From NCBI GenBank assembly GCA_964360855.1, contig CAYHXV010000001.1, positions 20,042 through 84,041 on the forward strand: 64,000 bases of DNA, given 5' to 3'. A program made the translations under genes and the position numbers. Positions 824 through 51,035 of this stretch are shown here, piece by piece. The first letter of the stretch is position 1, and every line of letters begins with the position of its first letter. The stretch comes from an uncultured Candidatus Saccharibacteria bacterium. GTDB lineage: Bacteria > Patescibacteriota > Minisyncoccia > Phycocordibacterales > Phycocordibacteraceae. The notes beneath the pieces were generated by a model. The model saw only the letters and a list, made by a program, of their open reading frames with translations. It made no database searches and was not told the DNA's origin.

Positions 824-896
824 ACGTAGAGAGACGATACCATACCAGAGGTATACTGAGTCCAGGCATGTTCCTTGCCTTTTGCGGAGGTATGTT

Positions 897-1307: not shown

Positions 1308-1308
1308 T

Positions 1309-1343
1309 GCAGAGGGCCGGTCCTAGAGACCGGCCCTATCGCT
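1309..1343. terminator. Perfect 10-bp stem hairpin (AGGGCCGGTC-ctaga-GACCGGCCCT) between convergent genes
   Basis: Palindrome seen directly in the sequence, between the stop of the 897..1307 gene and the tgt stop. No strong T-tract on either side. Confidence 0.45.
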
Positions 1344-2577
1344 ATCCATAGTATTCCCGCACAAACTCCGCCCGATACTGCGCAAACCTTCCCTCTTCAA
1401 TTGCTTCACGAGCGCCATCCACCAAACGGGTGAGAAACGCGAGGTTATGCAGCGATGCAATGATTTGCCCAAGCATTTCACCACTGCGCAATAGATGCGC
1501 AACGTATGCCACGGTGAATCCTTCACTGCCGCTTGGAAGCGTCCTCTCTAGAGATAGCTCAGAAAGTGTCGTGATGTCACCCTTATACTTTTCATTCAAA
1601 ATATTCATCGCTCCTCCTTTCGTATAGAGCACCCCATGCCTGCCATGCCTAGTGGGTGAGACACAATCAAACGTATCCACACCGTGCGAAATCGCAAGCA
1701 ACAAGTCTCCTGGCTCCCCCACCCCAAGTCCATGCCGAGGCAACTCTTCTGGTAGCTCCTCGAGCGCTTCTAGGGTAAGGGCGAGCATGCTCTCTCCATA
1801 CTTCTTGCTGAAAGACCCTCCGAGACCAAAGCCATCAAACCCCATCGCAGCAATTGCGCGAGTACTCTCTCTTCGCAGGTCAGGAAACTGTCCGCCTTGA
1901 GCGATACCGTAGATGCCCTGAGTCTGGTTAGCACTAATGTTCTGTCGGTGTGCTTTCAACGAACGCTCTGCCCAGCGATGCGTACGGTACATTGCTTCCT
2001 TCTGATACTCATACTCGGCAGATGGAGAGGTGCACTCATCAAAAGCAAAGAAAAGATCAGCACCAAGTTTATGCTGTATCTCAACAGAACGCTCGGGAGT
2101 AAATCGGTGGAGGGAGCCGTCTAGATGTGAGGTGAAGGTGACCCCTTCCTCGTCTATAATGGCCAATTGCCCATGCTGGCTTTGCACGTCCGCATCAAAT
2201 ACCGAGACTCCTTGCTCTGTGGCATTCTTTTCTTCTTCGGACACCGTTTGAATATTCTTTCCAAACCCCGCTCCAAGCGAGAACACCTGAAAGCCACCAG
2301 AGTCTGAAATAGTTGGGCCACTCCAACCCATAAACTTTCCGAGTCCTCCAGCAGTTTCCACCAATGCTTCTCCGGGCTGAAGGTACAGATGGTACGTATT
2401 GGCAAGCACCACCTGAGTACCAAGCATTGTTAATTGCTCAGGGAGAATGCCCTTCACACCAGCCTTGGTACCCACGGGCACGAATGCAGGAGTACGTATA
2501 TCTCCATGCGGAGTGGAGAGCACGCCTGAGCGTGCTTTTCCTTCGCGAGCGCTAATTGAAAATCGAACGGGTCTCAT
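1342..2577 (-). CDS. tgt: Queuine tRNA-ribosyltransferase (tRNA-guanine transglycosylase)
   Basis: 411 aa. Motifs VPVGTKAGVKG, LFFAFDECTSP and HGVDTFDCVSPTRHGRHG (zinc site) are characteristic of Tgt. Confidence 0.9.
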   Translation of the reverse strand: MRPVRFSISAREGKARSGVLSTPHGDIRTPAFVPVGTKAGVKGILPEQLTMLGTQVVLANTYHLYLQPGEALVETAGGLGKFMGWSGPTISDSGGFQVFSLGAGFGKNIQTVSEEEKNATEQGVSVFDADVQSQHGQLAIIDEEGVTFTSHLDGSLHRFTPERSVEIQHKLGADLFFAFDECTSPSAEYEYQKEAMYRTHRWAERSLKAHRQNISANQTQGIYGIAQGGQFPDLRRESTRAIAAMGFDGFGLGGSFSKKYGESMLALTLEALEELPEELPRHGLGVGEPGDLLLAISHGVDTFDCVSPTRHGRHGVLYTKGGAMNILNEKYKGDITTLSELSLERTLPSGSEGFTVAYVAHLLRSGEMLGQIIASLHNLAFLTRLVDGAREAIEEGRFAQYRAEFVREYYG

Positions 2578-2635
2578 ATATAGGTACCGTATGGGGGAAT
2601 AGCGTATTTAGCAAGAAGGTGATGCCGCGGCGAAG

Positions 2636-2670
2636 CTTGACAAGAGGACAATACAGGTATATACTATGTA
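2636..2670 (+). promoter_or_regulatory. Candidate sigma70-type promoter (TTGACA ... TATACT/TATATA) upstream of the lipoprotein gene
   Basis: A TTGACA hexamer is followed 15-18 nt later by TATATACTA. It sits about 60-90 nt upstream of the ATG at 2727. Confidence 0.35.
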
Positions 2671-2726
2671 TGTACTTGCTCTTTCCGTATTTGGACAGAG
2701 CGCAACTCTGGAAAGGAAGTTTCCCC

Positions 2727-3293
2727 ATGACCAACAACAAAAGGACGTGGGGGCTCGTCCTCGCGTCGGCTGCTTCAGCTTTCGTTCTCGGTGGCTGCCA
2801 AACTGTTCCGGGGCCGTACAACGGTCTTGGTCGGGACGGCGCGTCCATGGTCTATGTTCACAAGAACCGGGACTATGGGCCCATGACGGCCGAAGAATAC
2901 GGCGTGGTCACCGACCATGCCAATGACTGCCTCGTCGATGGACGGCGGCAGATGGCCTCAGTCGGCGAGACGTCCGGCACCATGGCCGCAGTTGGTGCCG
3001 TCTCTGGCAGCATCAGTGGCTCCCTCGTCACGCAGTTCATTCCGGGAGGAAGGACCAGCGTGTACGGTCCCTACATCGGCACCATGAATGCTATCAACGG
3101 CGGAGTCGGGGGTCTGGCTATGCAGTCGTCCGTGACGACCAACTTTGTCGGCAGCTGCACCAACGGAGACTTGTCTGACCCTCTCACGCGCGAGAAGGTC
3201 CCGGGCGTCCACGCGTATCCGGCGCCGGTACGAAGCAACAACCGGACCGGCAGAGTTCCTTCCTGGATTACTGCCGCTCCCGCGACCGAGTAG
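2727..3293 (+). CDS. Putative lipoprotein, Gly/Ser-rich, unknown function
   Basis: Start ATG at 2727 with GGAAAGGAAG upstream. Signal peptide with lipobox (LASAASAFVLGGC). The longer ORF-track start at 2556 overlaps the tgt start region. Confidence 0.6.
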   Translation: MTNNKRTWGLVLASAASAFVLGGCQTVPGPYNGLGRDGASMVYVHKNRDYGPMTAEEYGVVTDHANDCLVDGRRQMASVGETSGTMAAVGAVSGSISGSLVTQFIPGGRTSVYGPYIGTMNAINGGVGGLAMQSSVTTNFVGSCTNGDLSDPLTREKVPGVHAYPAPVRSNNRTGRVPSWITAAPATE

Positions 3294-3313
3294 CGCTCTA
3301 CTTCAAACGACTG

Positions 3314-3346
3314 AACCCGCCCCTCAACAGGCGGGTTCTTTGTATT
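3314..3346 (+). terminator. Rho-independent terminator (CCCGCC-loop-GGCGGG + TTCTTTGTATTCTT)
   Basis: GC stem followed by a T-rich run, immediately after the lipoprotein stop. Confidence 0.6.
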
Positions 3347-3360
3347 CTTGTAAGGGAAGG

Positions 3361-3885
3361 CTACTTAACTTCGAGTAGTTCTACTTCAAAGATAAGGGTG
3401 GCGTTCGGGGGAATTGAACTGCCTGCTCCCTGACTGCCATACGCTAGGTCTGGTGGAATAATAAGTTGGCGCTTCCCGCCCACTTTCATACCCGCTACTC
3501 CCTGATCCCATCCCTTGATCACCTGCCCTGCTCCAAGTGCAAAGCTAAACGCCTGTCCTCGAGGCTTTGAAGCATCGAACACGGTGCCATCCGGAAGCAT
3601 GCCCACATAGTGAACAGATACCGTCTTACCAGATACCGCTTCTGCGCCCGTACCCACCACAATATCTTTTCCGGTGAGGGTGGTTGGTAATTGTGCAGGG
3701 GCACCTGCTGGTGTTTCATCTCCATTCATAGCGGTTGGTGAGGTGGTAAGGGTTGTAGTTGCGAACTCAGGCTCTGGCAAGTTCTGCGGAGCCATGAGGG
3801 CCGCGATGGGGGCTCCAAAGAACAGAAGACCCCCTGCTGCAACAACGGCGATAGCGACTGCAATTCCGGTGCCAGTGACATTCAT
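3361..3885 (-). CDS. Membrane-anchored FKBP-type peptidyl-prolyl cis-trans isomerase
   Basis: The C-terminal domain ([16 protein letters not shown]...[38 protein letters not shown]...[10 protein letters not shown]) is a canonical FKBP fold. The N-terminal hydrophobic segment looks like a membrane anchor. The ORF-track start at 3891 is a TTG; the ATG at 3885 is preferred. Confidence 0.85.
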
Positions 3886-3914
3886 AGGCAAATTGATACT
3901 AAAAATTAATACAG

Positions 3915-4220
3915 TTAGTCGGCTTCCGACACGGCTAGTATATCATCCGCAATACTCTCCACAGCCTCTTGCACAGCCTGTTCAGCCCCCGGCACGCGGG
4001 TGGTCAAAAAGGCCTCGAGTGCCTCCTCATCTGCTTCTGCCTCCATAAGTGCGACAAACTCCTCTCGCGTTGGCTCGTCCATGTTCTCAATCATGCGCGC
4101 CAGGGAGCTTTTGAAGATAACCGAATTCAGATCAAGCAGCAATTCATTCTGCTCCTCAAGTGGAAGTGCGGAAAGATCGAGTGCGTCCATGAGTTTCTGG
4201 AAACGATTGGTATCAGTCAT
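3915..4220 (-). CDS. Small acidic hypothetical protein (101 aa)
   Basis: ORF is 2 nt downstream of the 913-aa gene. Very acidic, helical-looking sequence ([10 protein letters not shown]...[12 protein letters not shown]). No known domain recognised. Confidence 0.55.
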
Positions 4221-12392: not shown

Positions 12393-13328
12393 CTAGCGCA
12401 GCAATGAATTAACCGGAGGAACGAGCCGTGAGGGGTTTGGAACCGCTACCGGTATCGGCACTCCCGCTGATGACTCTATGGGCATACGAGCGTCCTCCTT
12501 CTTTTGATTCTCCCGCTCATGAATAAGCGTCTCGAGAAGTCGCTTACCCACCGCAGGGGTGCTGGTGGCAGTTGTTGAAGCCTCTTCCCCTGACACTGAC
12601 ATTCCGGTCAGGAGACTGGTTGCGCGTACCCGTGCCTTCTCGGACACCTTGGCGCCCTTCTTAGCACTCTGTGCAGCAGGTGCTTCAGCAGCACCTTCAC
12701 GCAGACGGGCCACCTTGCGCACCACCGCCTGTCTAATATTGGTATCGTGCTCCTGGCCAGCTTGTGCGCTCAACTGAGCTTCTAGATTTGCACGGATGGC
12801 CAGAGACTCTGAAGCATCTCCTGACTGTTCAAGCTTGTCTGCCTCGTGCAGTGCCTTATCCGCCTCACCCTCAAAGCGGGAAGCAAGTTCTGCCTCAGTC
12901 TTTGCAGAGAGCGTTCCGCGCTCACGCAATACCTCTGCTTCCTGTACTCGACGCAGGGCAAGGAAGCTGTGGAGACGCGCCTTAGCTTCACCCGAGCCAG
13001 CAAACACTGCGCGTGCAGGTTCGTTCACTTTTGTCTTCACGGCATAGAGTGGCTCTCCCGGTACCGCGTTCTCTGCCGCAAATGCTGTGGCGGTGCCACC
13101 GCCCACAATAACCGCAAGTGCGAGAACACTAACCGCGAGAGTACGCGAGTGTCCTATCACTGACCCAAGGAAAGTTAGGGAGTTGAACGGGGCAGCTTCA
13201 ACTGCAGGCATGGTGTGGAGCTCTGCATACGCCATCAGTTCCTCACGGATACGAGTTCGGACCCCGTCTCCAAGACGGACCTTTTTAAGCTTATGTATGA
13301 AATTGTGTTCAGTGTTATTCATGGACAT
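12393..13328 (-). CDS. Anti-sigma factor-like membrane protein (partner of the ECF sigma)
   Basis: Start ATG (MSMNNTEH...) overlaps the last codons of the sigma-factor gene (ATGTCCATGAATAA). A single TM (LAVSVLALAVIVGGG) is followed by a coiled-coil/charged extracytoplasmic region. The longer ORF-track start lies inside the sigma gene. Confidence 0.6.
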   Translation of the reverse strand: MSMNNTEHNFIHKLKKVRLGDGVRTRIREELMAYAELHTMPAVEAAPFNSLTFLGSVIGHSRTLAVSVLALAVIVGGGTATAFAAENAVPGEPLYAVKTKVNEPARAVFAGSGEAKARLHSFLALRRVQEAEVLRERGTLSAKTEAELASRFEGEADKALHEADKLEQSGDASESLAIRANLEAQLSAQAGQEHDTNIRQAVVRKVARLREGAAEAPAAQSAKKGAKVSEKARVRATSLLTGMSVSGEEASTTATSTPAVGKRLLETLIHERENQKKEDARMPIESSAGVPIPVAVPNPSRLVPPVNSLLR

Positions 13329-13821
13329 GTAGGTGTTCGCGAACTTTCTTGAGAGCACGGTTGATACGAACAGATATCGCATTGGGCGTTTCGCCACGAA
13401 GTTCTGCAATTTCTGCGGGGGAGAATCCCTCAACGAAGCGCAGAAGCAAGGACTCGCGGCTCGGTTCGTCCAATGTGTTGATAACGGCCAACACTTCCTC
13501 GTTCATCGCATTGTGGAGTATAGGCACCTCGTCTGTTCCTTTGGCTTCAAAGCCTTCTTCACTTAGGGCATCGAGTGATGCCTCCTTTTTCTTCCGGTAC
13601 CAGTCAATGATGAGGTTGCGCGCAATGGCATACAGGAGTGCTCTATCGTTTCGCAAGACTGTTTCCTTTCGCAGTGCCTGCCAAAAACGCATAAACACTT
13701 CCTGCGTTATATCCTCTGCACGTGCTCTATCACTTACTTTCACCAAGGCAAAGCGAAAGATCGCATCCGCATACTGATCGTATGTTTGGAGGAAGTATTC
13801 GTTAGCTTCGATCTGGTCCAT
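13315..13821 (-). CDS. ECF-type RNA polymerase sigma-70 family factor (sigma-24-like)
   Basis: 168 aa with region 2 (DAIFRFALVKVSDRARAEDITQEVFMRFWQAL) and region 4 (LSPAEIAELRGETPNAISVRINRALKKV). Confidence 0.85.
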   Translation of the reverse strand: MDQIEANEYFLQTYDQYADAIFRFALVKVSDRARAEDITQEVFMRFWQALRKETVLRNDRALLYAIARNLIIDWYRKKKEASLDALSEEGFEAKGTDEVPILHNAMNEEVLAVINTLDEPSRESLLLRFVEGFSPAEIAELRGETPNAISVRINRALKKVREHLHVHE

Positions 13822-13875
13822 AGAGTATGACGGCCACCTCCCGACATTCTGTCAAGGGAGGGGCCTCCTCTATGG

Positions 13876-13916
13876 TGCCATAAAAGCAACAGCGCGCCCA
13901 GTGGACGCGCTGTTGC
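13876..13916 (-). terminator. Hairpin terminator (GCAACAGCGCG...CGCGCTGTTGC + T-tract) downstream of the Lys-rich gene
   Basis: An 11-bp GC-rich stem is followed by TTTTAT on the minus strand. Confidence 0.5.
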
Positions 13917-13932
13917 TTCTTATGCTCGAGAA

Positions 13933-14421
13933 CTAGCGCGCCTTCTTGACCGCTTTCTTAACGAGCTTCTTCACTGCCTTCACTTCCTTCTTAACCAACT
14001 TCTTTACGGCACCCTTCTTGGTGACGGCCTTCACTGCCTTCTTCACCGCTACTGAGGGCTCAAGTTCACGCTTTAGCTCGCCCCAATTCTTCTGGAGCTC
14101 ACGAACTGCCATATCAACGTCGTCACTAGCAACTCCCTTCATACCACGGTATGAAGCTGCAGCTTTCTCAACTGCGGCAGCCACCGTCTTAGCGTCCACC
14201 TTCTTAAGGTTTTTAATCTGCTTCAGAGCATCACGCTTGAGTCCCTTTGCCCACACACTTGCTGCGTGGCGATGCTTCTTGGCGTTCTTGGTTCCATAAA
14301 AGTAATACGTTGCGGCACCTGCTGCGGCAACGGCAGCAAGCACACCTGCACCAATTTCTACCGCCTCAAGGGTGCTCATGCCTTTCTTGCTCACTGCCTT
14401 CTTTGTTGTCTTCTTTGCCAT
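13933..14421 (-). CDS. Lysine-rich histone H1-like protein with N-terminal hydrophobic segment
   Basis: C-terminal AKK/VKK repeats (KKAVKAVTKKGAVKKLVKKEVKAVKKLVKKAVKKAR) as in bacterial H1/Hc1-like nucleoid proteins. Hydrophobic stretch LEAVEIGAGVLAAVAAAGAATYYFY near the N-terminus. Confidence 0.55.
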   Translation of the reverse strand: MAKKTTKKAVSKKGMSTLEAVEIGAGVLAAVAAAGAATYYFYGTKNAKKHRHAASVWAKGLKRDALKQIKNLKKVDAKTVAAAVEKAAASYRGMKGVASDDVDMAVRELQKNWGELKRELEPSVAVKKAVKAVTKKGAVKKLVKKEVKAVKKLVKKAVKKAR

Positions 14422-14437
14422 AAATGTAATTAAATTG

Positions 14438-14713
14438 TTAGGACCGCTTTGTGCGGGTTTTTCTTTTCTTCATGCCGCTCAGGAACCCAAACAAGTGGCC
14501 AATGCGTAGACCTTCCTTGTGTACATGCTCACGCACGTTTTGAATGTCTTCCCGAAGCTGCTCTCCCTCACCGCGCACCAGTGCCGTTACCTCATCTATC
14601 TTTTTAAGTATGCCAAGTACGCGCAGAAGTACCATCGTCAAGAGCACGGACAGTACCGTCGTTGCAAGAGTTGCAACGACGAAGAAAATATCCATCTTGA
14701 GAAAGTTGTCCAT
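14438..14713 (-). CDS. Small membrane protein, DUF948-like (TM + coiled coil)
   Basis: Internal ATG at 14713 preceded by AGGATAGAGGAA. N-terminal TM (IFFVVATLATTVLSVLLTMVLL), then a charged helix. The longer ORF start overlaps the neighbouring gene. Confidence 0.45.
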   Translation of the reverse strand: MDNFLKMDIFFVVATLATTVLSVLLTMVLLRVLGILKKIDEVTALVRGEGEQLREDIQNVREHVHKEGLRIGHLFGFLSGMKKRKTRTKRS

Positions 14714-14813
14714 CTGTTCCTCTATCCTATCTTGCCTGTGGGGGTATGCAAGGGTGTGGGCAAGGAAAATCAAAAGACCCGCACCGTTTCCGGGGCGGGT
14801 CCTCCTGAAGGGG

Positions 14814-15380
14814 TCACACTTCCGACTTGGCTCTTGCAACCGCGGCAAGCACCGTGTCTTCCAGTGTGGAATGGATCGGGAAGTGTAGGCCGTCTCCAAG
14901 CGTGTCGTTCAGCTCTCGTTGGATTTGATCCAAGCCATAGAACCGAGGATCGGCTCCAACCACGACCCTGAGCTCTGGGTCTTGCTCCAGGTACGCAGTC
15001 CACTTTCCAATTTCCCGTCGGGAATCCATCGCAAATGGCTCAGGTCCCGGATGGGGGTGTTCTTCGGATTCGAAGGCCAACCAGAACATCAGGCATCCAT
15101 TTCTAGCTGCCCTCAGCATATGATAGTTTTCCCAGGCCAACTGGCGCGCGAATACCGGATCATCATTAGAAACGCCCTGAATCTGTTTCCCCAGCAATGG
15201 GTGACCCGGATAGTCTTTTTCGTACCGCATTGGGATGGCTGCAACGAAGTGAACAAGCTGCTTCTCAAGCTCCCCATAGGCTTGGTACTGCCAGTCTCCG
15301 CCGCCTCGGACTGGACCGGCGAGAAAGATTAAGGGCGGCATCCAGTTTGTAGCGCGTTTTTTCGGTAGAATTACACTCAT
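14814..15380 (-). CDS. Hypothetical protein, possibly nucleoside 2-deoxyribosyltransferase-like fold
   Basis: Start MSVILPKK with GGGAGA upstream. An N-terminal LIFLAGPVRGGGDWQ motif resembles the Rossmann-like NDT/YtoQ-type family. Weak assignment. Confidence 0.3.
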   Translation of the reverse strand: MSVILPKKRATNWMPPLIFLAGPVRGGGDWQYQAYGELEKQLVHFVAAIPMRYEKDYPGHPLLGKQIQGVSNDDPVFARQLAWENYHMLRAARNGCLMFWLAFESEEHPHPGPEPFAMDSRREIGKWTAYLEQDPELRVVVGADPRFYGLDQIQRELNDTLGDGLHFPIHSTLEDTVLAAVARAKSEV

Positions 15381-15430
15381 TTCACGTCTCCCTACTTCTA
15401 GGAAGAGTCTGCCAATATATATCAGTAAAG

Positions 15431-15670
15431 TCAAATAGAATCCGGTACTCTAACAAATCGGGGTCCCGAGTACCCAATCTCCGGTTTGTCCACCGTATCC
15501 ATAAACATTTCAAGCGGGCGTATAAAGAATTCAGGAATGTCTGCTTCGTACAGCCGCTTGTACAGCACCATCTTCTCCTCAGTTTCGGTGTGGAAAGCGA
15601 CCCCCAGCACCTCATAGTGTTTGGCGGGGTCTTTGAAGTGATAATAGATGCCAAGCTCAGGTTCTTTCAT
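15431..15670 (-). CDS. DUF1653 family protein
   Basis: 79 aa. YYHFKDPAKHYEVLGVAFHTETEEKMVLYKRLY matches the conserved DUF1653 core pattern. Confidence 0.65.
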   Translation of the reverse strand: MKEPELGIYYHFKDPAKHYEVLGVAFHTETEEKMVLYKRLYEADIPEFFIRPLEMFMDTVDKPEIGYSGPRFVRVPDSI

Positions 15671-15729
15671 TCACAGAGTATAGCAGTCTGCTCATATGAT
15701 AATTAGGCAACATGTGTTAGGGTGTGTCC

Positions 15730-16611
15730 ATGTCTTCCTCTCGCCGAAAACCTGGCTTCCAAATTAAGAAAGTGGTTGTTGCAAAGAAACCGACTCGTGC
15801 GGTTCGTCATGCGGTATCCAAAAGGAGAGTTGAGGCCAAGCCAGTGGAGTCACTTCCTCGTTTAGTTAAGCCTCGGGGTCCTGCTCCCCTCCCGAGTGCA
15901 ACCTTGTACCCCATGCGTATTAATAAGTACCTTGCCCAACAGGGGCATGCCACACGCCGTGAGGCTGATGCCCTTGTTGAAAAGAAGGCAGTGCTCATCA
16001 ATGGGCGCATCGCTCAAGTGGGAGACAAGATACTTGAGAGCGATGTTATTGAAGTACGTCGCAATGCCCGTCCCGGGCGCTATACGTACCTTGCCTTTAA
16101 TAAGCCGGTGGACGTTGATACCCATCGAGAAGACACGGGCTCTTCGAACGTGTTTGATCTGCTGCCTCCCGAAGTGAAACAGCTGAAGCTCTTTCCGGTG
16201 GGCAGACTTGATAAGGCTTCGCATGGACTCATCATTCTCACCAACGATGGCAGGATTACCGACCGTCTCTTGAATCCTGATCACGCGCACGAGAAGACAT
16301 ACGAGGTGCGCACGAAACAGCCGCTACGGACCACCTTCAAAGAGAACATGCAGTCTGGCGTGCTCATTGAAGGGTATATGACCAAACCTGCCAAGGTGAA
16401 TATTCTTGGCGAGAAGGCATTTCGTATTGTCCTTACCGAGGGAAAGAGTCACCAGATTCGACGTATGGTATCCGCACTCCACAACGAGGTATCAGACCTG
16501 CGGCGTATGAGCATTATGAATATTAAATTGAATGCGCTCAAGGCCGGGAGTTATCGAGCTATTGAAGGAGAGGAGCTGAAGGAGTTTTTGCATTCATTAG
16601 GGTTGGGGTAA
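15730..16611 (+). CDS. Pseudouridine synthase, RsuA/RluB family, with basic N-terminal extension and S4 domain
   Basis: S4-like MRINKYLAQQGHATRREADALVEKKAVLINGR. Catalytic core FPVGRLDKASHGLIILTNDG ... GKSHQIRRM. The ORF-track start at 15724 is a GTG; the ATG at 15730 is preferred. Confidence 0.85.
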   Translation: MSSSRRKPGFQIKKVVVAKKPTRAVRHAVSKRRVEAKPVESLPRLVKPRGPAPLPSATLYPMRINKYLAQQGHATRREADALVEKKAVLINGRIAQVGDKILESDVIEVRRNARPGRYTYLAFNKPVDVDTHREDTGSSNVFDLLPPEVKQLKLFPVGRLDKASHGLIILTNDGRITDRLLNPDHAHEKTYEVRTKQPLRTTFKENMQSGVLIEGYMTKPAKVNILGEKAFRIVLTEGKSHQIRRMVSALHNEVSDLRRMSIMNIKLNALKAGSYRAIEGEELKEFLHSLGLG

Positions 16612-16618
16612 GTAGCAA

Positions 16619-16647
16619 CCCCCGGACTTTTGATCCGGGGGTTTTTG
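16619..16647 (+). terminator. Rho-independent terminator (CCCCCGGA-loop-TCCGGGGG + TTTTT)
   Basis: Seen directly in the sequence, after the pseudouridine synthase stop. Confidence 0.7.
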
Positions 16648-16668
16648 GAGTGACTGGAGTGCGAATGT

Positions 16669-17064
16669 TTAGAGCTTCAAGGTACCCGCATTGCGGATGA
16701 GGAGGTGATAGTCAGTGCCCCAGACCTCGTCGCAGTCGAATGAGTCCTCGCACAAGCGCCAGCGCCCAGCATGACCAATGCTCCCAACGGAAACACCTCC
16801 CTCCACATTCTCCTTAAAGTAGAAATAGCGGTGATTGGTGCGCCGTGACTCCTCCATAGCCTCATCGTCGGTCACGGTGTGTTTGCCGTCGATGAGCCGC
16901 TGGGCGAGTTCTTCTATGGGGGTGTTCGGGGACACGTCAGCAATCGAAGCCGCCCATTCCCTGAAGCGCCCAGGGTGCGCTGGGACGAAGTCTGAGATTA
17001 GAGGGGTGGGTAACGACTCACGCATTGCCTTTCTCCATGGGCTGAACTCTCTATGAATAATCAT
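16669..17064 (-). CDS. Hypothetical protein (131 aa)
   Basis: ORF only; no recognisable motifs. Confidence 0.4.
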   Translation of the reverse strand: MIIHREFSPWRKAMRESLPTPLISDFVPAHPGRFREWAASIADVSPNTPIEELAQRLIDGKHTVTDDEAMEESRRTNHRYFYFKENVEGGVSVGSIGHAGRWRLCEDSFDCDEVWGTDYHLLIRNAGTLKL

Positions 17065-30784: not shown

Positions 30785-31819
30785 CTAATCTTGCCTAGAA
30801 ACCTCCAACACTGCAAGCTCGAGCGGCAGTGCTGGAATGGGGCTAAAGCGCATCCGACTCGCCGCATCGAGAAACATGCGCAGAGTGTTGTGTGTCAGCT
30901 TTGAATCTTTGGTACTCGCCAGTGCCTCCACTTCTCCATACACATCTGCCCCAAGCTCAGCTTGAATGTCTTTGCGCAGCTCTGGCGCGTGCCGCACCAG
31001 AAGCACCGAGCGCATGAATTCAAGCACCAACGAAAGATAGAGATTCATGTCCACGTCCTGCCCGCTCGCACTACGCACCGCAACCAGCGCCTCCTCTGTC
31101 TTCCCCTCAGACAGAGCCCGAACAAGCGCACACACTAGTGCATGCTTTGGCGCTCCGGTAGCTTGTTCAACCTCTACCAGAGACAGTTTCTTGTCCGTTG
31201 CCGAGGCAAGTACTTTCTCAAGCACCGAGAGTGCGTCACGGTATGAACCATCGGCAAGCATACCAATGAGATCTGCTCCAGCTAGCTCGAGGCTGTATCC
31301 CTCCTTCTTTGCCACACTCGCAACGAGCGTGGACAACCCTTCTCGGTTTGGCTTCCTAAACTCAAACACCTGGCAGCGAGACCGCACCGTCTCCGGAACT
31401 TTCTCAAGCTCAGTGGTGGCAAGAATGAAGATGGCATGTGCAGGAGGCTCCTCGAGCGTCTTCAAGAAAGCATTCCATGCTCCTTTAGATAGCATGTGTG
31501 CCTCGTCCAAGATGTACACCTTGTACGGGGAATTGAACGGCAGGGTGTACACCTGCTCGGTCAGAGAGCGTATCTCATCCACCCCGTTGTTTGAAGCAGC
31601 ATCAATCTCATAGAGATCTCTATCTGAAACTCCTAACTCTTGAGCAAAAATGCGCGCAACAGAAGTCTTCCCCAGTCCCCGACTTCCGGCAAACAAATAC
31701 GCATGTCCCACTTTCTTAAGAGAGAGTTGCTCCTGAAGCGGCCTCACGATCTGATCCTGCCCAATGAGGTCTTTAAAGGTGTGCGGACGATATGCGCGAT
31801 ACAGGGACTGGTGTGCCAT
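30785..31819 (-). CDS. dnaX: DNA polymerase III subunit gamma/tau, short form (~344 aa)
   Basis: AHQSLYRAYRPHTFKDLIGQDQIV...GSRGLGKTSVARIFA...YILDEAHML...SRCQVFEF are clamp-loader AAA+ motifs. Start MAHQSLY; the ORF-track upstream extension overlaps dus. Confidence 0.85.
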   Translation of the reverse strand: MAHQSLYRAYRPHTFKDLIGQDQIVRPLQEQLSLKKVGHAYLFAGSRGLGKTSVARIFAQELGVSDRDLYEIDAASNNGVDEIRSLTEQVYTLPFNSPYKVYILDEAHMLSKGAWNAFLKTLEEPPAHAIFILATTELEKVPETVRSRCQVFEFRKPNREGLSTLVASVAKKEGYSLELAGADLIGMLADGSYRDALSVLEKVLASATDKKLSLVEVEQATGAPKHALVCALVRALSEGKTEEALVAVRSASGQDVDMNLYLSLVLEFMRSVLLVRHAPELRKDIQAELGADVYGEVEALASTKDSKLTHNTLRMFLDAASRMRFSPIPALPLELAVLEVSRQD

Positions 31820-31826
31820 AGGGGGA

Positions 31827-32774
31827 TTATAGCAGTGCCCTAAACGAAGCGTAATCATCTGCTTCCATGAGTTTGGTGCGAAGCTCGCCAGACCCCTCAA
31901 ATCCCGTCACAAACGCTTTCACATGCTTCTTCAATATATGGAAGGACTTCTGGGGACGGAGCTGCTCATACCCACTTGCTAGCTCGAGCAGTGCCTTCAG
32001 TTTCTCCTCTCGGGAGACATCAAAGCGCTCGGTAAACAACCAAGGATTCCCGAATATTGCCCGCCCTAGCATAATGCCGTCTGCTCCAGACTCATGAGCG
32101 CGCACCCGTGCCTCTGCAATATCCTGCACATCCCCGTTCCCGAGTATGAGCGTCTCGGGACTCACTCGATCACGAATACGCACCGCTTCGGGCATCAATT
32201 CCCAGTGTGCGGGAACCTTACTCATTTCTTTGCGTGTACGCAGGTGCACGGTGAGGGCTGCTGGTTTTTCCTCAAGCACACTCGTTAACCACTCCCCCAT
32301 GTTCTCACTGTTGTATCCAATGCGCGTCTTCACCGAGACGGGCAGGCCACTCTGGGCTGCCGCTCGAATAATTTCCTTAGCGCGTTCAGGATTCTTAATC
32401 ATAGCGGCCCCACAACCCTGCTTTTCAATAGACTTATCAGGGCACCCCATATTGATGTCTACCCCATCAAATCCGAGAGAAGCACAAAGCTTCGCTGCGT
32501 ACGCCATGTTCTCCGGGTTACTCGAGAACAACTGCGCCACAATAGGGCGCTCTGCTTCGGAGAAGAGAAGATCCCGCATGAGCGGATTCTCTTCGTCCTT
32601 CATGCCCTTCTTTTCGCGTGTATGAAAAATACCATCCGCTGAAACAAACTCCGTCCAGGTGACGTCCGCCGCCCCATAGGCAGCGATTATCTTGCGGTAT
32701 GCCGGGTCCGTCACATCCGCCATGGGGGCGAGTGCAAAGAATGGCTTTGGTAGCTTGGTCCAGAATGAATCCAT
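31827..32774 (-). CDS. dus: tRNA-dihydrouridine synthase
   Basis: FALAPMADVTD..., VDINMGCPDKS, GCGAAMIK are Dus family motifs. Confidence 0.85.
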   Translation of the reverse strand: MDSFWTKLPKPFFALAPMADVTDPAYRKIIAAYGAADVTWTEFVSADGIFHTREKKGMKDEENPLMRDLLFSEAERPIVAQLFSSNPENMAYAAKLCASLGFDGVDINMGCPDKSIEKQGCGAAMIKNPERAKEIIRAAAQSGLPVSVKTRIGYNSENMGEWLTSVLEEKPAALTVHLRTRKEMSKVPAHWELMPEAVRIRDRVSPETLILGNGDVQDIAEARVRAHESGADGIMLGRAIFGNPWLFTERFDVSREEKLKALLELASGYEQLRPQKSFHILKKHVKAFVTGFEGSGELRTKLMEADDYASFRALL

Positions 32775-45772: not shown

Positions 45773-46321
45773 CTAAGGGAGCTTCACCGCACCCGGACAG
45801 AAACTGAGTCCAAGATTCTCATACTGCGAGTACACCTCACTCACGTCTGGCGTCACCGATATAATCGTATTTAAACTACAGAGCTCGCTATCCGAGAGCG
45901 CAAGCAAGTTTCTCAAGTACGTTTGTGCTTCTAACCGAGCTGCTCCAATAGGCTCGGCAATAAGTATTATGAGAAATTGTGAATCAGATTCAGAATACTG
46001 AATCGAGAAGGTGAATCCTTCGGTAGAATATTCCGGTCCGTATAAGTTATAGAATCGCCCACCAGGGGTATCCAGTGGTTCTTTTCCAGACAAGACGTTG
46101 GGTACCATTACCGCTTCTCCACTCCTCGCATGGACACTCATCGTCTTTGGCACGTACGTGGTGCTTCCTCCAGGATTCAGAATTCCTCCAAAGGGATTGA
46201 GAGGTTGCGTGCTCCCTGGTGACTGCCGTCCAAACATCTGAAGGCCCACATAGCCAAGTACACCAATACTCAGAACAATGAGCACGACCGCAACCACAAT
46301 AATAAGTCTCTGCTTCGTCAT
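45773..46321 (-). CDS. Membrane-anchored hypothetical protein in the pilin-fusion operon
   Basis: N-terminal TM (LIIVVAVVLIVLSIGVLGYVGL). Stop/start overlaps with both flanking genes. Confidence 0.55.
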   Translation of the reverse strand: MTKQRLIIVVAVVLIVLSIGVLGYVGLQMFGRQSPGSTQPLNPFGGILNPGGSTTYVPKTMSVHARSGEAVMVPNVLSGKEPLDTPGGRFYNLYGPEYSTEGFTFSIQYSESDSQFLIILIAEPIGAARLEAQTYLRNLLALSDSELCSLNTIISVTPDVSEVYSQYENLGLSFCPGAVKLP

Positions 46322-47322
46322 GGTAGTAATGATACCCCACGAGTAATCAGTGTCTGAAGAGCAAGTGGCAGTGGCGTGGAGCCTGCGTCAGCGAGCCCAC
46401 ACTTCCCTGCAGTAGACCACTCCTTCCAGCCGGTGCGCTTGTTGGTCGCAACCGCTTCGGCAATATTGGCACTCGCGGTCTTTGCTGCCGCCACACAGCG
46501 CGCGTAAAGTGCTTCATCCTTCACTCTCGCGGTATAGTTTTTGCCCGTAAAGGCGGAAGGGCAGTTAAGTCCCGCGACAGAATGGTAGGTGAGATTTATT
46601 TGAAATAGACCAAAAGAGAATGCGCGACGTTGAGGATCGTTATGCATGTAGTCACTACCACTAACGCGTTGCACAACACCGCCACTCTCGGCATAGCAAA
46701 TTTGTGCAGCCTGTCTCGCGGTTTCCTCAGAACCAAAAGCTGCAATGAAATTAGTATACGCACACGCTCCACTGGTGGGTATCCGACAACTCCCCGGTCC
46801 TCCTCCTGCCACTCCTGGAGTGCCGCCAGAGGTAGAGAGCTCTGCGGCGGTGATGGCGCCACTGAAGAGCGGTATTGTTTCAAATGAGGTCACACACATG
46901 TCGCCCCCGGTGAGGATACTGTTCCAGGGTCCGAACTCTCCCTTGGTACCATCAGGTCCGCTATAGAGCGCCTTCATAACAAAGTCCACAATAAGCCATG
47001 CGGAGAGCACAATGAGAAGTCCAACAGCAGCATTTATAAGCATCTTGTTTGCTTGGCTTCGAGCCTCGGGGTTTGCAGGTGTGGTGATATAGAGAAACCC
47101 GGCCCACGCAATGATGATAACGGCAAATAAAACACCTATCGATATCCCCCCGTTCACCAGGTTCTGAACGGTTCCTAATACTCCTGCAAATCCGCAGGGG
47201 CACGCTCTGCAGGCTTCGGGTACCAAGCTCCACCCAGAAGAAAGAAAGGGCATATCTGCAGCTGCCACAGAAAGCGGAAGCACACTGAGTGTTAGTAGGG
47301 AGAGAGCCCGCAACCGATTCAT
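46318..47322 (-). CDS. Secreted TrbC/VirB2-like pilin module fused to lytic transglycosylase/lysozyme-like domain (VirB1-like)
   Basis: Signal peptide plus an N-terminal two-helix pilin-like module paralogous to 44819..45769. C-terminal QICYAESGG...FGLFQIN...Y fits SLT/goose-lysozyme-family catalytic motifs (E-S ... GLMQ-like). Confidence 0.6.
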   Translation of the reverse strand: MNRLRALSLLTLSVLPLSVAAADMPFLSSGWSLVPEACRACPCGFAGVLGTVQNLVNGGISIGVLFAVIIIAWAGFLYITTPANPEARSQANKMLINAAVGLLIVLSAWLIVDFVMKALYSGPDGTKGEFGPWNSILTGGDMCVTSFETIPLFSGAITAAELSTSGGTPGVAGGGPGSCRIPTSGACAYTNFIAAFGSEETARQAAQICYAESGGVVQRVSGSDYMHNDPQRRAFSFGLFQINLTYHSVAGLNCPSAFTGKNYTARVKDEALYARCVAAAKTASANIAEAVATNKRTGWKEWSTAGKCGLADAGSTPLPLALQTLITRGVSLLP

Positions 47323-47401: not shown

Positions 47402-47475
47402 GGGCCTATAGTTTAATGGTAGAACATTGGTCTCCAAAACCAATAGTGTAGGTTCGATTCCTACTGGGCCCGCCA
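47402..47475 (+). tRNA. tRNA-Trp (anticodon CCA), CCA encoded
   Basis: Acceptor GGGCCTA/TGGGCCC, anticodon stem TTGGT/ACCAA with loop CTCCAAA, T-arm GTAGG-TTCGATT-CCTAC. Confidence 0.8.
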
Positions 47476-47486
47476 CATAAAACTCC

Positions 47487-47975
47487 ATGCTCATACCTGT
47501 AGTAGATGCTAACGATATTCAGATAGGGCTTAAAGAGCGCGAGGATATTACCTCTGGCGATATCTACCGTGTTTCTGCGCTTTGGCTCACGAACTCTAAT
47601 GGGGATGTTCTTCTCACACAGCGCTCATATACAAAGAAGAATAGCCCTGGTGCGTGGAGCGCGGCAGTTGCCGGGACGGTAGAGTGTTCAGAAAGTTACG
47701 AGGAAAATATACTGAAAGAGACTCAGGAGGAATTGGGATTTCTACTTTCTTCCAGCGAGCTTCGGCTTGGCCCCAAAAAGCGCATGCCGCATCTGTTTTG
47801 TCAGTGGTATTTTGCTACAAAGAACATCGCTCTCAATACACTCATTCTCCAGCCAGACGAAGTTATAGATGCGCAGTGGGTAACGCCCCAAGACTTACGA
47901 CGATGGGTCTCCGAACGACCTGAGGAATTTACTGGAAGCATGCCTCTAGTACTTGATGAGTTCCTTGCCCTATAG
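47487..47975 (+). CDS. NUDIX hydrolase
   Basis: Nudix box GTVECSESYEENILKETQEELG. Confidence 0.75.
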   Translation: MLIPVVDANDIQIGLKEREDITSGDIYRVSALWLTNSNGDVLLTQRSYTKKNSPGAWSAAVAGTVECSESYEENILKETQEELGFLLSSSELRLGPKKRMPHLFCQWYFATKNIALNTLILQPDEVIDAQWVTPQDLRRWVSERPEEFTGSMPLVLDEFLAL

Positions 47976-48034
47976 CCCCATTCCAGTTATCCCCACCCCC
48001 TCCAAAACCCCTTGACACCAAAACCCCCTTCCTG

Positions 48035-48122
48035 TAGTCTTCGTAAGTGCTTGTGAGCTTTTGGTTTCGGCCAGACTTTCACAGGCACACTGGAGAAACG
48101 GCTTTCGGGCCGTTTTTCCATT
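48035..48122 (+). ncRNA. Candidate small RNA (~75-85 nt): near-consensus promoter, 10-bp internal stem, intrinsic terminator
   Basis: TTGACA-17nt-TAGTCT promoter. The transcribed segment contains a GTGCTTGTGA/TCACAGGCAC perfect stem with a 22-nt loop, then ACGGC...GCCGT + TTTTT. No coding potential. Confidence 0.4.
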
Positions 48123-48139
48123 TCCCCCTTTCAATAGTT

Positions 48140-48170
48140 AAAAGGAAAACCGCCCTCTCGGGCGGTTTTC
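48140..48170. terminator. Bidirectional terminator hairpin (CCGCCC-tctc-GGGCGG flanked by T-runs)
   Basis: Seen in the sequence immediately downstream of the rpmG stop; T-rich on both strands. Confidence 0.6.
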
Positions 48171-48172
48171 TC

Positions 48173-48325
48173 TTACTTCTTCACTTCCTTATATAGCTCG
48201 TGCTTCCTGGTGTTTGGATCGTAATGCTTGAATTCAAGCTTTCGGGTGACCTTCTTCTTATTCTTCGTGGTCATACGAATATGTCCTGAGGGGGACTTCA
48301 TTTTCTGCAGGCGGTCTTGTGACAT
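48173..48325 (-). CDS. rpmG: 50S ribosomal protein L33
   Basis: C-terminal TTKNKKKVTRKLEFKHYDPNTRKHELYKEVKK matches the L33 consensus. This is a non-zinc form. Start ambiguous. Confidence 0.7.
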   Translation of the reverse strand: MSQDRLQKMKSPSGHIRMTTKNKKKVTRKLEFKHYDPNTRKHELYKEVKK

Positions 48326-48353
48326 AGGTAGGGAGACTATACCAGCCTGGGCA

Positions 48354-51035
48354 CTAGGACGCAACCGCGTGAGGAACCTTCACCCGCACCTTTCGCGCAG
48401 TCTTCTGCACCTCGAATGTTGGTATCCCTGCTTTAAGCACCACCCGCACACTTCCCCCCTCCATAATCCCTTGCCCAACCATGAGGCTCGCTATGGGGGT
48501 CAGAATCTTGTCCTGAATAACGCGCTTCAAGGGACGAGCTCCGTACTGTGGGTTGTATCCCTTTTCTGCCAGCCAGGTCTTCACCTCGGGAGAAAGCTCA
48601 AGGGTGATGCGCTTAGAACTAAGGCGCGCAACCACTTCCTTCACCTGCTTCTCCACAATCTTCTCAAGTGCTTCCTTGCTCAAGACATCAAAGATAACGA
48701 TGTCGTCCAAACGATTCAGGAACTCAGGACGGAACTGCGCTTTGAGTGCTTGCATCACGCGCTCCTTGATTTGTTCCCGCTCGGCCTCCCCTTCGGCACT
48801 CGACGCGGCAAAACCAATACCGCTCAAGCGATCGATAAACTCAGAACCAATGTTACTGGTCAGCACAATGATGGTGTTCTTGAAGTTCACCTTGCGTCCC
48901 TTGCCGTCCGTGAGGTGTCCGGAGTCAAGAACCTGTAAGAGGATGTTGAATACCTCTGGGTGCGCCTTCTCTATTTCGTCAAACAACACCACCGCGTACG
49001 GTCGATGACGAATACGCTCGGTGAGTGTTCCTGCCTCTTCGTATCCCACATAGCCAGGAGGAGCGCCAATCAGCTTTGAAACTGAGTGCTTCTCCATGAA
49101 CTCAGACATATCCACCCGAACCAAAGCCTCGGGATCGTTAAACATAAACTCAGCTAATTTGCGCGAGAGTTCTGTCTTGCCAACACCCGTTGGCCCCATA
49201 AACAGGAAGGAGCCAATGGGGCGGTTTGGGTCACTAATGCCCACACGGGAGCGCTTCACCGCGTCCGTGATGGTTTGCACCGCAGGGTCCTGCCCAATTA
49301 CCGAAGCGCGGAGTTCTTCTTCCATACGCGCGAGCTTTGCTGCTTCTTCCTCAAGCATCTTGAGAACCGGAATACCTGTCCAGCGAGCAACCACTCCGGC
49401 AATCTCCTGCTCCGTTACTTCCTCGTGCAATACCCTGCGTGACTTCTGCAATGTCTTTAGACGCTTGCTCTTTATTTCGAGCTCCTTTTGGAGGGCAGGC
49501 ATTTGTCCATACCTAATCTCTGCGGCGGTACCAAGATCTGCAGTGGCTTCGGCATTGTCTGAGGCAACGCGCATTTTATCCAATTCGCCCTTCAGCGCAC
49601 GAATGCTTTCAATGACCTCCTTTTCATTGCGCCACTTGAGCTCAAGTTCGCTCGTCTTCTCTCGTAAGTCCGCAATCTCTGTATCAATAGCGCTAATACG
49701 CTCTCGAATCTCCTTCCCGCTCTCTCCCTCTTCGTCCTTCTTTAAGGCTTCGCGCTCAATTTCAAGCCGACGAATCCTTCTATCTGTCTCTTCAAGAGCA
49801 GGAGGCTTGTTCTCTAGTGCAATGCGCAACCCTGAAGCGGCTTCATCAATAAGGTCGATTGCTTTATCCGGGAGAAACCTGTCGGTGATATAGCGACTCG
49901 AGAGGTCAACCGCCGCAACAAGCGCGCCGTCCGTAATGCGGACTCCATGGAAGAGTTCATACCGGTCGCGCAGCCCCCGCAGAATTGCCACCGCATCCTC
50001 AATTGAAGGCTCATTTACATACACCGGCTGGAACCTGCGCGTGAGCGCACCATCTTTCTCAATGTGCTGCTGGTATTCCTTCAGGGTAGTGGCTCCAATC
50101 ATACGAATTTCCCCTCGGGAAAGTGCGGGCTTCAGCATGTTGCTCGCGTCCAGTGCGCCATCTGCGCTTCCGGCTCCCACAATGGTATGTAGCTCGTCCA
50201 CAAAGAGAATCACCTTGCCTTCGGAGCGCTCCACCTCCTTCATCACATTCTTCATACGCTCCTCAAATTCCCCACGGTACTTGGTACCTGCAACCATCAT
50301 TCCCAAATCAAGGGAGAGAAGCTCCTTACCCTTTAGAGACTCTGGTACGTCCCCACTCGCAATGCGTGCAGCGAGTCCTTCAGCAACGGTGGTCTTGCCC
50401 GTTCCTGGCTCTCCAATCAGTACGGGATTGTTCTTGGTTCTGCGAGACAATATTTGAATCACCCGATGAATCTCCTGATCGCGGCCAATAACTGGGTCTA
50501 ACACGTTATCCGCCGCAAGTTTGGTCAGGTTGCGGGTGAATTTGGCGAGGGCACGAAACTTCTTTTCTCCAGTTGCCTGCCCATCCTTAGAATTTTTCAG
50601 TTCTTTCAAAACATTCATGACCGTATCCACATCAATTTTGAATTGTTTCAATATCTCATCCGCAGGGCCCGGATGTTCAATACTCGCAACAAACAAGTGC
50701 TCGGTGCCCACGAATGAATCATTCATACGGGCGGCGACTTTAGCTGCTGCTTCAAGAGCAGCTGCAAGCTCAGGGGTCAGATACAAATTATAGGAAGGAG
50801 AAAGGGTACTCGAGCTTTCCGGCATCTCAAGAGACTCAAGTATGGTGTCTGCCAGAAGCAACGTATCAACATTCATATGATCAAGCACGGAGAACACGAG
50901 ACTTTCCTCCTGATATATAAGGGCAGCCAGCAAGTGAAGCGGGCTCACATGATTTTGTCCACGCTCAATAGCAAGCTCGTGCGATTTCTTTATCGCTTCT
51001 TTGGCCTTGGTAGTGAAGTTTTTGAAAGGGGGCAT
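48354..51035 (-). CDS. clpB: ATP-dependent chaperone ClpB
   Basis: 893 aa. Clp N-domain, two AAA+ modules (GEPGTGKT; GPTGVGKT) and a long middle coiled-coil. Confidence 0.9.

What the first reader, a model, noticed from the sequence alone, without database searches (positions are those of the whole stretch)
48035..48122. Candidate small RNA with near-consensus promoter and intrinsic terminator, convergent with rpmG
Seen in sequence: TTGACA, a 17-nt spacer and TAGTCT lie about 7 nt before a segment with no coding potential. That segment forms a perfect 10-bp stem (GTGCTTGTGA/TCACAGGCAC) closing a 22-nt loop that itself contains a GGCC palindrome. Next comes a GC hairpin plus TTTTT. A second, bidirectional terminator follows before the rpmG stop. 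The element is too short for tmRNA, RNase P or 6S RNA, and it lacks the GGAAGGAAGCAGC-type SRP RNA domain IV motif, so its identity is unknown.
Basis: seen in the sequence. Interest (0 to 1): 0.55.

Follow-up and report, generated by a model that had tools for sequence, protein, structure and literature searches.

The report
Conserved two-hairpin small RNA in Paceibacteria
This is very probably a real, previously uncatalogued small RNA gene of about 75 bases, with its own promoter, a long hairpin and a terminator, found in a lineage of ultra-small Patescibacteria; its shape is strongly conserved but its function is unknown.

Summary
TTGACA-17 nt-TAGTCT (48012-48040) lies 6 nt before a 42-nt hairpin (48047-48088). 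A 2-nt linker and a second, terminator-type hairpin (48091-48120) follow. rpmG's own bidirectional terminator (48144-48171) comes next.

The window comes from a Patescibacteria (Paceibacteria/Parcubacteria) genome. I found the same element in 14 other distinct sequences. Five came purely from clpB-rpmG synteny and one lies in a different gene context.

On the 15-sequence alignment 92.9% of cells pair, against 37-51% when the partners are slid. 24 of 30 pairs show compensatory double changes. G·U pairs outnumber A·C (34 vs 12), and covariance-model scores favour the + strand (61-95 bits vs 39 or less). In most members the promoter geometry is conserved, with a purine start at the first base of the stem.

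No Rfam 15 family matches. The SRP RNA motifs are absent. No ORF and no single-stranded seed is conserved.

Best reading: an independently transcribed, probably abundant, structured small RNA. Its 5' hairpin seems to act through shape, most likely by binding a protein. That mechanism is inferred, not shown. It is a new small-RNA family of a familiar kind, of moderate interest. No expression data could be consulted.

The parts
48005..48008 (+). A-tract just upstream of the -35 box, inside a C-rich stretch; resembles an UP element
   Evidence: Sequence. An A-run at the same offset recurs in most homologues. Calling it an UP element is inference from E. coli promoter knowledge.
48012..48017 (+). 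-35 hexamer TTGACA
   Evidence: TTGACA (TTGACG in L128) is present in all homologues with upstream sequence except L134, L136 and L097; the L088 locus is cut off upstream of its -10 box.
48035..48040 (+). -10 hexamer TAGTCT, 17-nt spacer from the -35 box
   Evidence: Homologues have TAnnnT (TATCTT, TAGAGT, TACATT, TAGTAT, TATAAT), always 6 nt before a purine that is the first base of the stem.
48047..48088 (+). Hairpin 1, starting at the inferred transcription start. Lower stem 48047-48057/48078-48088 (11 pairs), 2x2 internal loop 48058-59/48076-77, upper stem 48060-65/48070-75, UUCG tetraloop 48066-69
   Evidence: Fold. 15 of its 17 pairs show compensatory double changes across 15 sequences. 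Apical loops are UNCG-like in nearly all members.
48089..48090 (+). 2-nt linker (AC)
   Evidence: The linker is AC, GC or AA in homologues.
48091..48120 (+). Hairpin 2: GC-rich stem-loop (UUCG loop) lengthened by pairing of GGAGAAA with UUUUUCC; the presumed intrinsic terminator and 3' protective hairpin
   Evidence: Fold. 99% of cells pair and 9 of 13 pairs show compensatory changes. Not flagged by the simple scan because the T-run lies inside the extended stem.
48121..48123 (+). Short U tail after hairpin 2
48144..48171 (.). Bidirectional terminator of rpmG-clpB. It is a neighbour, not part of the RNA.
   Evidence: 12 pairs, flagged on both strands. It lies directly after the rpmG stop and is present in the homologous loci.
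48173..48325 (-). rpmG (ribosomal protein L33, 50 aa), convergent neighbour, downstream of clpB (48354-51035, minus strand)
   Evidence: Pfam Ribosomal_L33 on the orthologues.

Best explanation
A stand-alone gene for a small non-coding RNA of about 70-77 nt, in a Paceibacteria (Patescibacteria/CPR) genome.

A near-consensus sigma-70-type promoter, with an upstream A-tract, starts transcription at or next to G48047, the first base of a 42-nt hairpin. That hairpin has an 11-bp lower stem, a small internal loop, a short upper stem and a UNCG-class tetraloop. After a 2-nt linker, a GC-rich hairpin with paired A- and U-tracts ends the transcript and caps its 3' end.

The RNA therefore has almost no single-stranded sequence, and both ends are buried in helices. 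That predicts a stable and probably abundant molecule. Evolution keeps the helices while the sequence changes freely, and no unpaired seed is conserved. The active part is therefore most likely the shape of hairpin 1, read by a protein (a double-strand-RNA-binding or other RNA-binding partner that it binds, sequesters or scaffolds), not base-pairing with a target mRNA.

Shown: the structure, its conservation and covariation, the strand, the promoter geometry, single copy, and absence from Rfam.
Inferred: transcription, the 5' and 3' ends, abundance, and the protein-binding mode of action.

My sub-probabilities are about 0.85 that it is a genuine expressed structured small RNA, and about 0.35-0.4 that it acts by shape-specific protein binding.
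For: - Stability: fold -42.6 kcal/mol, z = -6.7.
- Homologues found by clpB synteny alone: L001 and L003, then L131, L137, L128/L129, L136 and L134.
- Homologues found by pattern scan: L085, L088, L090, L093, L103, L119, L123, L125 and L097. L097 lies in an unrelated AT-rich context between pilT and gap.
- Covariation, 15 sequences: 92.9% of cells paired against 37-51% for slid partners; 24 of 30 pairs with double changes; 0 of 500 shuffles reach the observed score. RNAalifold independently predicts essentially the same two helices.
- Strand: model hits score 61-95 bits on the + strand and 39 or less on the reverse. There are 34 G·U cells against 12 A·C. Mean fold energy is -44.7 kcal/mol on the + strand and -36.9 on the reverse.
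- Promoter: TTGACA/17 nt/TAnnnT/6 nt/purine is kept while the upstream genes differ.
- Not coding: the first codon is GUG in some members and ACG or ACU in others, and indels shift the frame.
- No recurring complementary target in the neighbourhood.
- No Rfam family.
Against: - There are no expression data, so transcription and the ends are predictions.
- The simple terminator scan did not flag hairpin 2. In L128 and L137 the U-tract is short.
- L134, L136 and L097 lack a clear TTGACA -35 box.
- The element is missing from the syntenic slot in L002, L004, L130, L132 and L135. It is therefore either dispensable or located elsewhere in those genomes.
- No partner protein has been identified, and no unpaired nucleotides are conserved that would mark a binding site.
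- Nine of the homologues were found through a pattern in hairpin 2, so the sequence conservation of that part is inflated by ascertainment.
Confidence: 0.6

Rival explanations
1. A base-pairing regulatory small RNA. The semi-conserved stretch ACUGGARAAAC (linker plus 5' flank of hairpin 2, containing an SD-like GGAG/GGAA) would be exposed and pair with target RNAs. Alternatively it would mimic a ribosome-binding site.
For: ACUGGARAAAC is identical in the window and in the synteny-derived L001, L003 and L131. The layout of a 5' hairpin, a short conserved stretch and a terminator resembles many trans-acting small RNAs.
Against: - In synteny-derived members the stretch changes together with its 3' partner (GCCGGAAAGGC/GCCUUUCCG in L128, CGGAAAAGC/GCUUUUCC in L136, UGAAAAAGU/ACUUUUUCA in L134). 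It therefore behaves as a helix strand, not a seed.
- Only 2 nt are predicted to be unpaired.
- No recurrent complementary site was found in the flanking 14-64 kb of nine genomes.
- A-tract/U-tract flanks are generic features of bidirectional terminators.
Confidence: 0.15
2. A highly reduced, non-canonical SRP (4.5S) RNA. In these streamlined genomes the hairpin would be the Ffh-binding RNA.
For: - It is the right size and shape class: a roughly 42-nt hairpin with an internal loop and a tetraloop, like SRP domain IV.
- It has a strong, stable-RNA-type promoter and is single copy.
- No SRP RNA was detected in the 64-kb window.
- The ffs-dnaX linkage known to me from Firmicutes and Actinobacteria is absent here, because dus abuts dnaX.
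Against: - No SRP family scores even at E<=10 on this region or at E<=1 on homologues.
- The tetraloop is UNCG-class, not GNRA.
- The internal loop varies in size and sequence, and no conserved AGCA/AGG-type loop nucleotides are present.
- The element is missing from the syntenic slot in five related genomes.
- The window covers only about a tenth of the genome, so a canonical ffs may simply lie elsewhere.
Confidence: 0.05
3. A cis-acting transcription-insulation cassette. A strong convergent promoter plus tandem terminators would block or modulate read-through from rpmG-clpB, or make antisense RNA to read-through transcripts. The hairpin would serve only to stabilise or terminate.
For: Twelve of the 14 distinct homologues are convergent with rpmG-clpB and lie within about 30-60 nt of its terminator. 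Hairpin 2 is symmetric enough to terminate in both directions. In L134 it directly abuts the rpmG stop.
Against: - rpmG has its own strong bidirectional terminator in between.
- In L128/L129 two genes separate the element from rpmG, and there it converges on a different gene.
- In L097 it sits between co-directional pilT and gap.
- A pure insulator gives no reason for 15 of the 17 hairpin-1 pairs to keep pairing through compensatory changes.
Confidence: 0.1
4. A DNA-level palindrome: a binding site for a dimeric protein, a recombination site, or a REP-like element, not an RNA.
For: A 42-bp inverted repeat lies next to a hotspot of variable genes between tRNA-Trp and rpmG.
Against: - The half-sites are not conserved in sequence but covary to keep pairing. 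That is the signature of a folded single strand, not of a protein-DNA site.
- There are 34 G·U cells against 12 A·C, and the + strand folds better on average.
- It is single copy.
- A promoter sits at a fixed distance upstream and a terminator downstream.
Confidence: 0.04

Closest known systems
Generic bacterial trans-encoded small RNA genes (own sigma-70 promoter, 5' stem-loop, Rho-independent terminator, 50-300 nt)
   Same: A stand-alone intergenic unit with a near-consensus promoter and a terminator hairpin. Size is about 75 nt. It is restricted to one lineage and non-coding.
   Different: It has almost no single-stranded region and no conserved seed. The conservation is purely structural, which is unusual for base-pairing regulators and points to recognition by shape.
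Plasmid-type two-hairpin antisense RNAs (FinP, about 79 nt: stem-loop I, short spacer, stem-loop II/terminator; RNAI, RF00106)
   Same: The overall architecture and length are the same: a 5' hairpin, a very short linker, a terminator hairpin and a strong constitutive-looking promoter. RNAI is among the best sub-threshold Rfam hits (24.7-29.2 bits). The FinP comparison is from my own knowledge.
   Different: The Rfam hits fall below the gathering score of 47 and cover only the two tandem terminators, not hairpin 1. No gene on the opposite strand overlaps the element. The locus is chromosomal and no FinO/ProQ-type partner is known here.
Bacterial small SRP RNA (4.5S RNA, RF00169)
   Same: A small, probably abundant, single-copy hairpin RNA with an internal loop and a tetraloop, found in a streamlined genome.
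   Different: It has a UNCG-class rather than a GNRA tetraloop. It has no conserved symmetric or asymmetric loop nucleotides. There is no covariance-model match even at E<=10.
Cyanobacterial Yfr1-type small RNAs (two stem-loops flanking a conserved unpaired motif); from my own knowledge
   Same: A short RNA built of a 5' stem-loop and a terminator stem-loop, conserved within one lineage.
   Different: Yfr1 acts through an ultraconserved single-stranded 11-mer between the hairpins. Here the linker is only 2 nt and is not conserved.

Membership tests
Any Rfam 15 family | Covariance-model score at or above the family's gathering threshold | tested here: not met
   The whole window at gathering thresholds gives only 7 tRNAs. 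The local region at E<=10 gives only sub-threshold hits driven by the terminators, the best being 26 bits against a cut-off of 55. Seven homologous loci give the same picture.
Bacterial small SRP RNA (RF00169) | GNRA tetraloop capping helix 8 | tested here: not met
   The apical loops are UUCG, UACG, CUCG, UCCG, CACG and CUUG.
Bacterial small SRP RNA (RF00169) | Invariant nucleotides in the symmetric and asymmetric internal loops (the Ffh M-domain binding site) | tested here: not met
   The internal loop varies from 2x2 to about 5x5 with no invariant unpaired base. No SRP model hit appears at E<=10.
Bacterial small SRP RNA (RF00169) | It is the only SRP-like RNA in the genome, with no canonical ffs elsewhere | not testable with these tools
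   Only 64 kb of this genome, and about 20-kb pieces of relatives, could be read.
6S RNA | An RNA of about 150-200 nt with a large central bubble that mimics an open promoter | tested here: not met
   The element is about 75 nt with two plain hairpins and has no Rfam hit.
Stand-alone small RNA gene (generic class) | Own promoter at a fixed distance from the RNA 5' end | tested here: met
   TTGACA-17-TAnnnT-6 nt-purine is conserved in most homologues although the upstream genes differ. This is predicted, not mapped.
Stand-alone small RNA gene (generic class) | Intrinsic terminator at the 3' end | tested here: inconclusive
   A GC-rich stem followed by U4-5 is present in all members and covaries. 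However, the consensus scan did not flag it, and the U-run is short in L128 and L137.
Stand-alone small RNA gene (generic class) | Secondary structure conserved through compensatory changes, and strand-specific | tested here: met
   24 of 30 pairs show double changes, with 92.9% of cells paired against 37-51% for slid partners. There are 34 G·U against 12 A·C. The + strand scores far above the reverse strand.
Stand-alone small RNA gene (generic class) | A discrete transcript is detected | not testable with these tools
   No RNA-seq resource was available.
cis-antisense RNA (RNAI/FinP/CopA type) | An overlapping target transcript encoded on the opposite strand | tested here: not met
   The opposite strand holds no conserved gene. 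rpmG ends behind its own terminator 24 nt downstream. RNAI scores 24.7 bits against a cut-off of 47.

The most novel reading that the evidence does not exclude
The hairpin is the RNA subunit of a housekeeping ribonucleoprotein specific to this CPR lineage. In the extreme version it is a non-canonical replacement for SRP RNA, whose usual GNRA tetraloop and loop motifs have been lost. The points in favour are the stable-RNA-type promoter, the burial of both ends in helices, and purely structural conservation in a genome of about 0.6-0.7 Mb that keeps little non-essential RNA.
Probability: 0.12. Interest if true: 0.8.

Novelty: new member of a known kind. Interest (0 to 1): 0.45.

Why it matters
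Patescibacteria (the Candidate Phyla Radiation) make up a large share of bacterial diversity. They have tiny genomes and are mostly uncultured, and my literature searches found almost nothing on their non-coding RNAs beyond the universal ones.

A small RNA with strong covariation support and a strong promoter, kept across many Paceibacteria genomes, is a concrete handle on RNA-based regulation or a lineage-specific RNP in these organisms. It is also a ready candidate for a new Rfam family; the alignments and models exist as A2 and R2.

It does not overturn anything. New lineage-specific small RNAs are found regularly.

Tried and rejected
- Rfam at gathering thresholds and at E<=10 or E<=1, on the window and on homologues: nothing but tRNAs and terminator-driven noise.
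- SRP RNA: rejected on the tetraloop class, the lack of conserved loop bases and the lack of any model hit. I could not check for a canonical ffs elsewhere. I looked upstream of dnaX, the ffs position I recall from Firmicutes and Actinobacteria, but dus abuts dnaX there.
- Small ORF or leaderless peptide: the 49-aa GTG ORF at 48047-48196 is not conserved. Some homologues start with ACG or ACU, and indels shift the frame.
- Second copies or repeats: none in the window or in related loci.
- Nearby complementary targets: only chance 11-14-mers, and none recur across genomes.
- Proximity to a replication origin or terminus: the GC-skew profile shows no switch.
- Functional link to the upstream NUDIX gene: NUDIX lies directly upstream only in the window and L134, and elsewhere the neighbour differs.
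- Obligatory link to rpmG: broken in L128/L129 and L097.
- Literature searches for CPR/Patescibacteria small RNAs or SRP RNA returned nothing relevant.
- The ACTGGARAAAC...GTTTTTCCAT pattern scan also returned about 35 unrelated chance hits, mostly coding or generic terminators, which I discarded.

Full report
**What is in the sequence**

One search shows TTGACA (48012-48017), a 17-nt spacer, TAGTCT (48035-48040) and six more bases. A 42-nt hairpin follows at 48047-48088.

ViennaRNA folds 48035-48122 into two hairpins at -42.6 kcal/mol. The z-score is -6.7 and none of 200 dinucleotide shuffles folds as well.

- Hairpin 1 has an 11-pair lower stem (two of them G·U), a 2x2 internal loop, a 6-pair upper stem and a UUCG tetraloop.
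- A 2-nt linker (AC) follows.
- Hairpin 2 (48091-48120) is a GC-rich stem with a UUCG loop. It is lengthened by GGAGAAA pairing with UUUUUCC and is followed by UUU.

Otherwise the description is accurate.

The second hairpin, 48144-48171, is flagged as terminator-like on both strands. It directly abuts the stop codon of rpmG (48173-48325, minus strand), which follows clpB (48354-51035, minus strand). The simple scan did not flag hairpin 2 because its T-run lies inside the extended stem.

The full promoter pattern TTGACA-N16-18-TAnnnT occurs only three times in 64 kb. The element itself occurs once.

**Where the window comes from**

The ClpB protein is 100% identical to a 'Patescibacteria group bacterium' protein. 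It is 81-92% identical to many proteins labelled Candidatus Paceibacterota or Parcubacteria. The gene neighbourhood (T4SS-pilin paralogues, IF-2, RbfA, ParB, RelA/SpoT) matches those genomes.

**Homologues**

- *By clpB synteny alone.* The same element lies downstream of rpmG, on the convergent strand, in L001 and L003. Further clpB-based look-ups found it in L131, L137, L136, L134 and L128/L129.
- *By pattern scan.* One metagenome scan with a pattern taken from hairpin 2 added L085, L088, L090, L093, L103, L119, L123, L125 and L097.
- *Context.* All pattern-derived members except L097 are again convergent with rpmG-clpB. L097 comes from an AT-rich genome and sits between pilT and gap, followed by its own second terminator. 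In L128/L129 two inserted genes separate the element from rpmG.
- *Absences.* It is missing from the fetched regions of L002, L004-L009, L130, L132 and L135.

**Structure conservation**

On 11 sequences aligned by MAFFT, 93.6% of cells pair, against 39-55% when the partners are slid. 16 of 30 pairs show double changes.

On the 15-sequence model-based alignment A2:

| Measure | Value |
|---|---|
| Cells paired | 92.9% (slid partners 37-51%) |
| Pairs with compensatory double changes | 24 of 30 |
| Shuffles reaching the observed covariation score | 0 of 500 |

RNAalifold predicts essentially the same two helices on its own. The alignment was fitted to the model, which favours the structure somewhat. 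The MAFFT alignment and the per-sequence minimum-energy folds agree with it.

Hairpin 2 is not invariant. In synteny-derived members its A/U-rich base changes on both strands together (L128, L134, L136, L137). It is therefore a helix and not a seed.

The apical loops of hairpin 1 are almost all UNCG-class. The internal-loop region varies in size and sequence, and no unpaired base is invariant.

**Strand and transcription signals**

- Model hits score 61-95 bits on the + strand and at most 39 bits on the reverse strand.
- The helices hold 34 G·U cells against 12 A·C.
- Mean fold energy is -44.7 kcal/mol on the + strand and -36.9 on the reverse.
- In most members the upstream sequence reads A-tract, TTGACA, 17 nt, TAnnnT, 6 nt, then a purine that is the first base of the stem. 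The genes further upstream differ between genomes.
- L134 and L136 keep the -10 box and the spacing but have a different -35 region. L097 has TATAAT.

Together this argues for a dedicated and probably strong promoter, with transcription starting at the base of hairpin 1. No expression data could be consulted.

**What it is not**

- No Rfam 15 family reaches threshold in the window.
- At E<=10 the local region gives only terminator-driven sub-threshold hits to rnk leader, RNAI, Leu/Phe leaders and GcvB. Seven homologous loci behave the same way.
- SRP RNA is excluded as a family assignment: the tetraloop class is wrong, no loop nucleotides are conserved, and there is no model hit.
- It is not coding.
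- It is not a repeat.
- It has no overlapping antisense gene.
- No complementary target recurs nearby.

**How it most likely works**

The RNA is essentially two helices joined by two nucleotides, with both ends base-paired. Selection keeps the helices, the stable tetraloops and the promoter, but not the sequence.

This pattern fits an RNA recognised by shape, most simply a stable small RNA that binds or sequesters a protein. It does not fit a seed-pairing regulator.

Hairpin 2 is most simply the intrinsic terminator and 3' protective structure. It may also back up termination of rpmG-clpB from the other side.

I put about 0.85 on 'a genuine expressed structured small RNA' and about 0.35-0.4 on the protein-binding mechanism. 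The rivals are:

| Rival | Probability |
|---|---|
| Base-pairing small RNA acting through ACUGGARAAAC | ~0.15 |
| Convergent-transcription insulator | ~0.1 |
| Non-canonical SRP RNA | ~0.05 |
| DNA-level palindrome | ~0.04 |

**Novelty and interest**

This is a new small-RNA family of a familiar architectural kind, in a phylum whose non-coding RNAs are hardly charted. Literature searches found nothing relevant.

It is well supported as a structure but functionally open. Interest is moderate, and would be higher if it proved to be the RNA of a lineage-specific housekeeping RNP.

Noticed in passing
window 47402-48172, compared with L128, L130, L132, L134, L135, L136 and L137 at about 12700-16500: The slot between tRNA-Trp and rpmG is a hotspot of variable genes in this lineage. 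It holds NUDIX in the window and L134, a response regulator in L132, a 69-aa ORF in L130, a sigma-70 factor in L136, DUF1295 in L137 and two large genes in L128. In L135 an alternative oxidase follows clpB where rpmG would be. The small RNA sits at the edge of this slot.
   Followed up: partly
window 30832-30845 (-) and 47973-47986 (+): The exact 14-mer TAGCCCCATTCCAG occurs twice. One copy is inside the 3' end of dnaX (30785-31900, minus strand). The other starts at the NUDIX stop codon, just upstream of the small-RNA promoter. It may be chance.
   Followed up: partly
L089 1883-2076, L110 1043-1236, L127 36-229: By-catch of the pattern scan. Unrelated metagenome contigs carry tandem units of about 155 nt, each ending in ACTGGAAAAAC...GTTTTTCCAT and preceded by similar 'GCCATTT.AGG...TTTTTTGAAATGGTTTTTAGC' sequence. 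This looks like a repeated structured element or array of unknown nature.
   Followed up: no
window 30785-32774 (-): dnaX is preceded directly by a dihydrouridine synthase gene (dus), with overlapping ORF calls, and is followed by tRNA-Gln. No SRP RNA gene lies upstream of dnaX, unlike the ffs-dnaX arrangement I know from Firmicutes and Actinobacteria. No SRP RNA, tmRNA, RNase P or 6S RNA was detected anywhere in the 64 kb.
   Followed up: partly
window 45773-47322 (-), and L128-L137 at about 300-4000 and 13300-16900: There are multiple paralogous T4SS_pilin (PF18895) genes, some fused to VanY-like domains. They lie in conserved clusters on both sides of the clpB region in all relatives.
   Followed up: no
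window 48325-48364: The mechanical ORF list starts rpmG at a TTG (48364) that overlaps the clpB stop. Comparison with the 50-51-aa orthologues puts the real start at the ATG at 48325. rpmG therefore follows clpB after a gap of about 30 nt, probably as one operon.
   Followed up: yes
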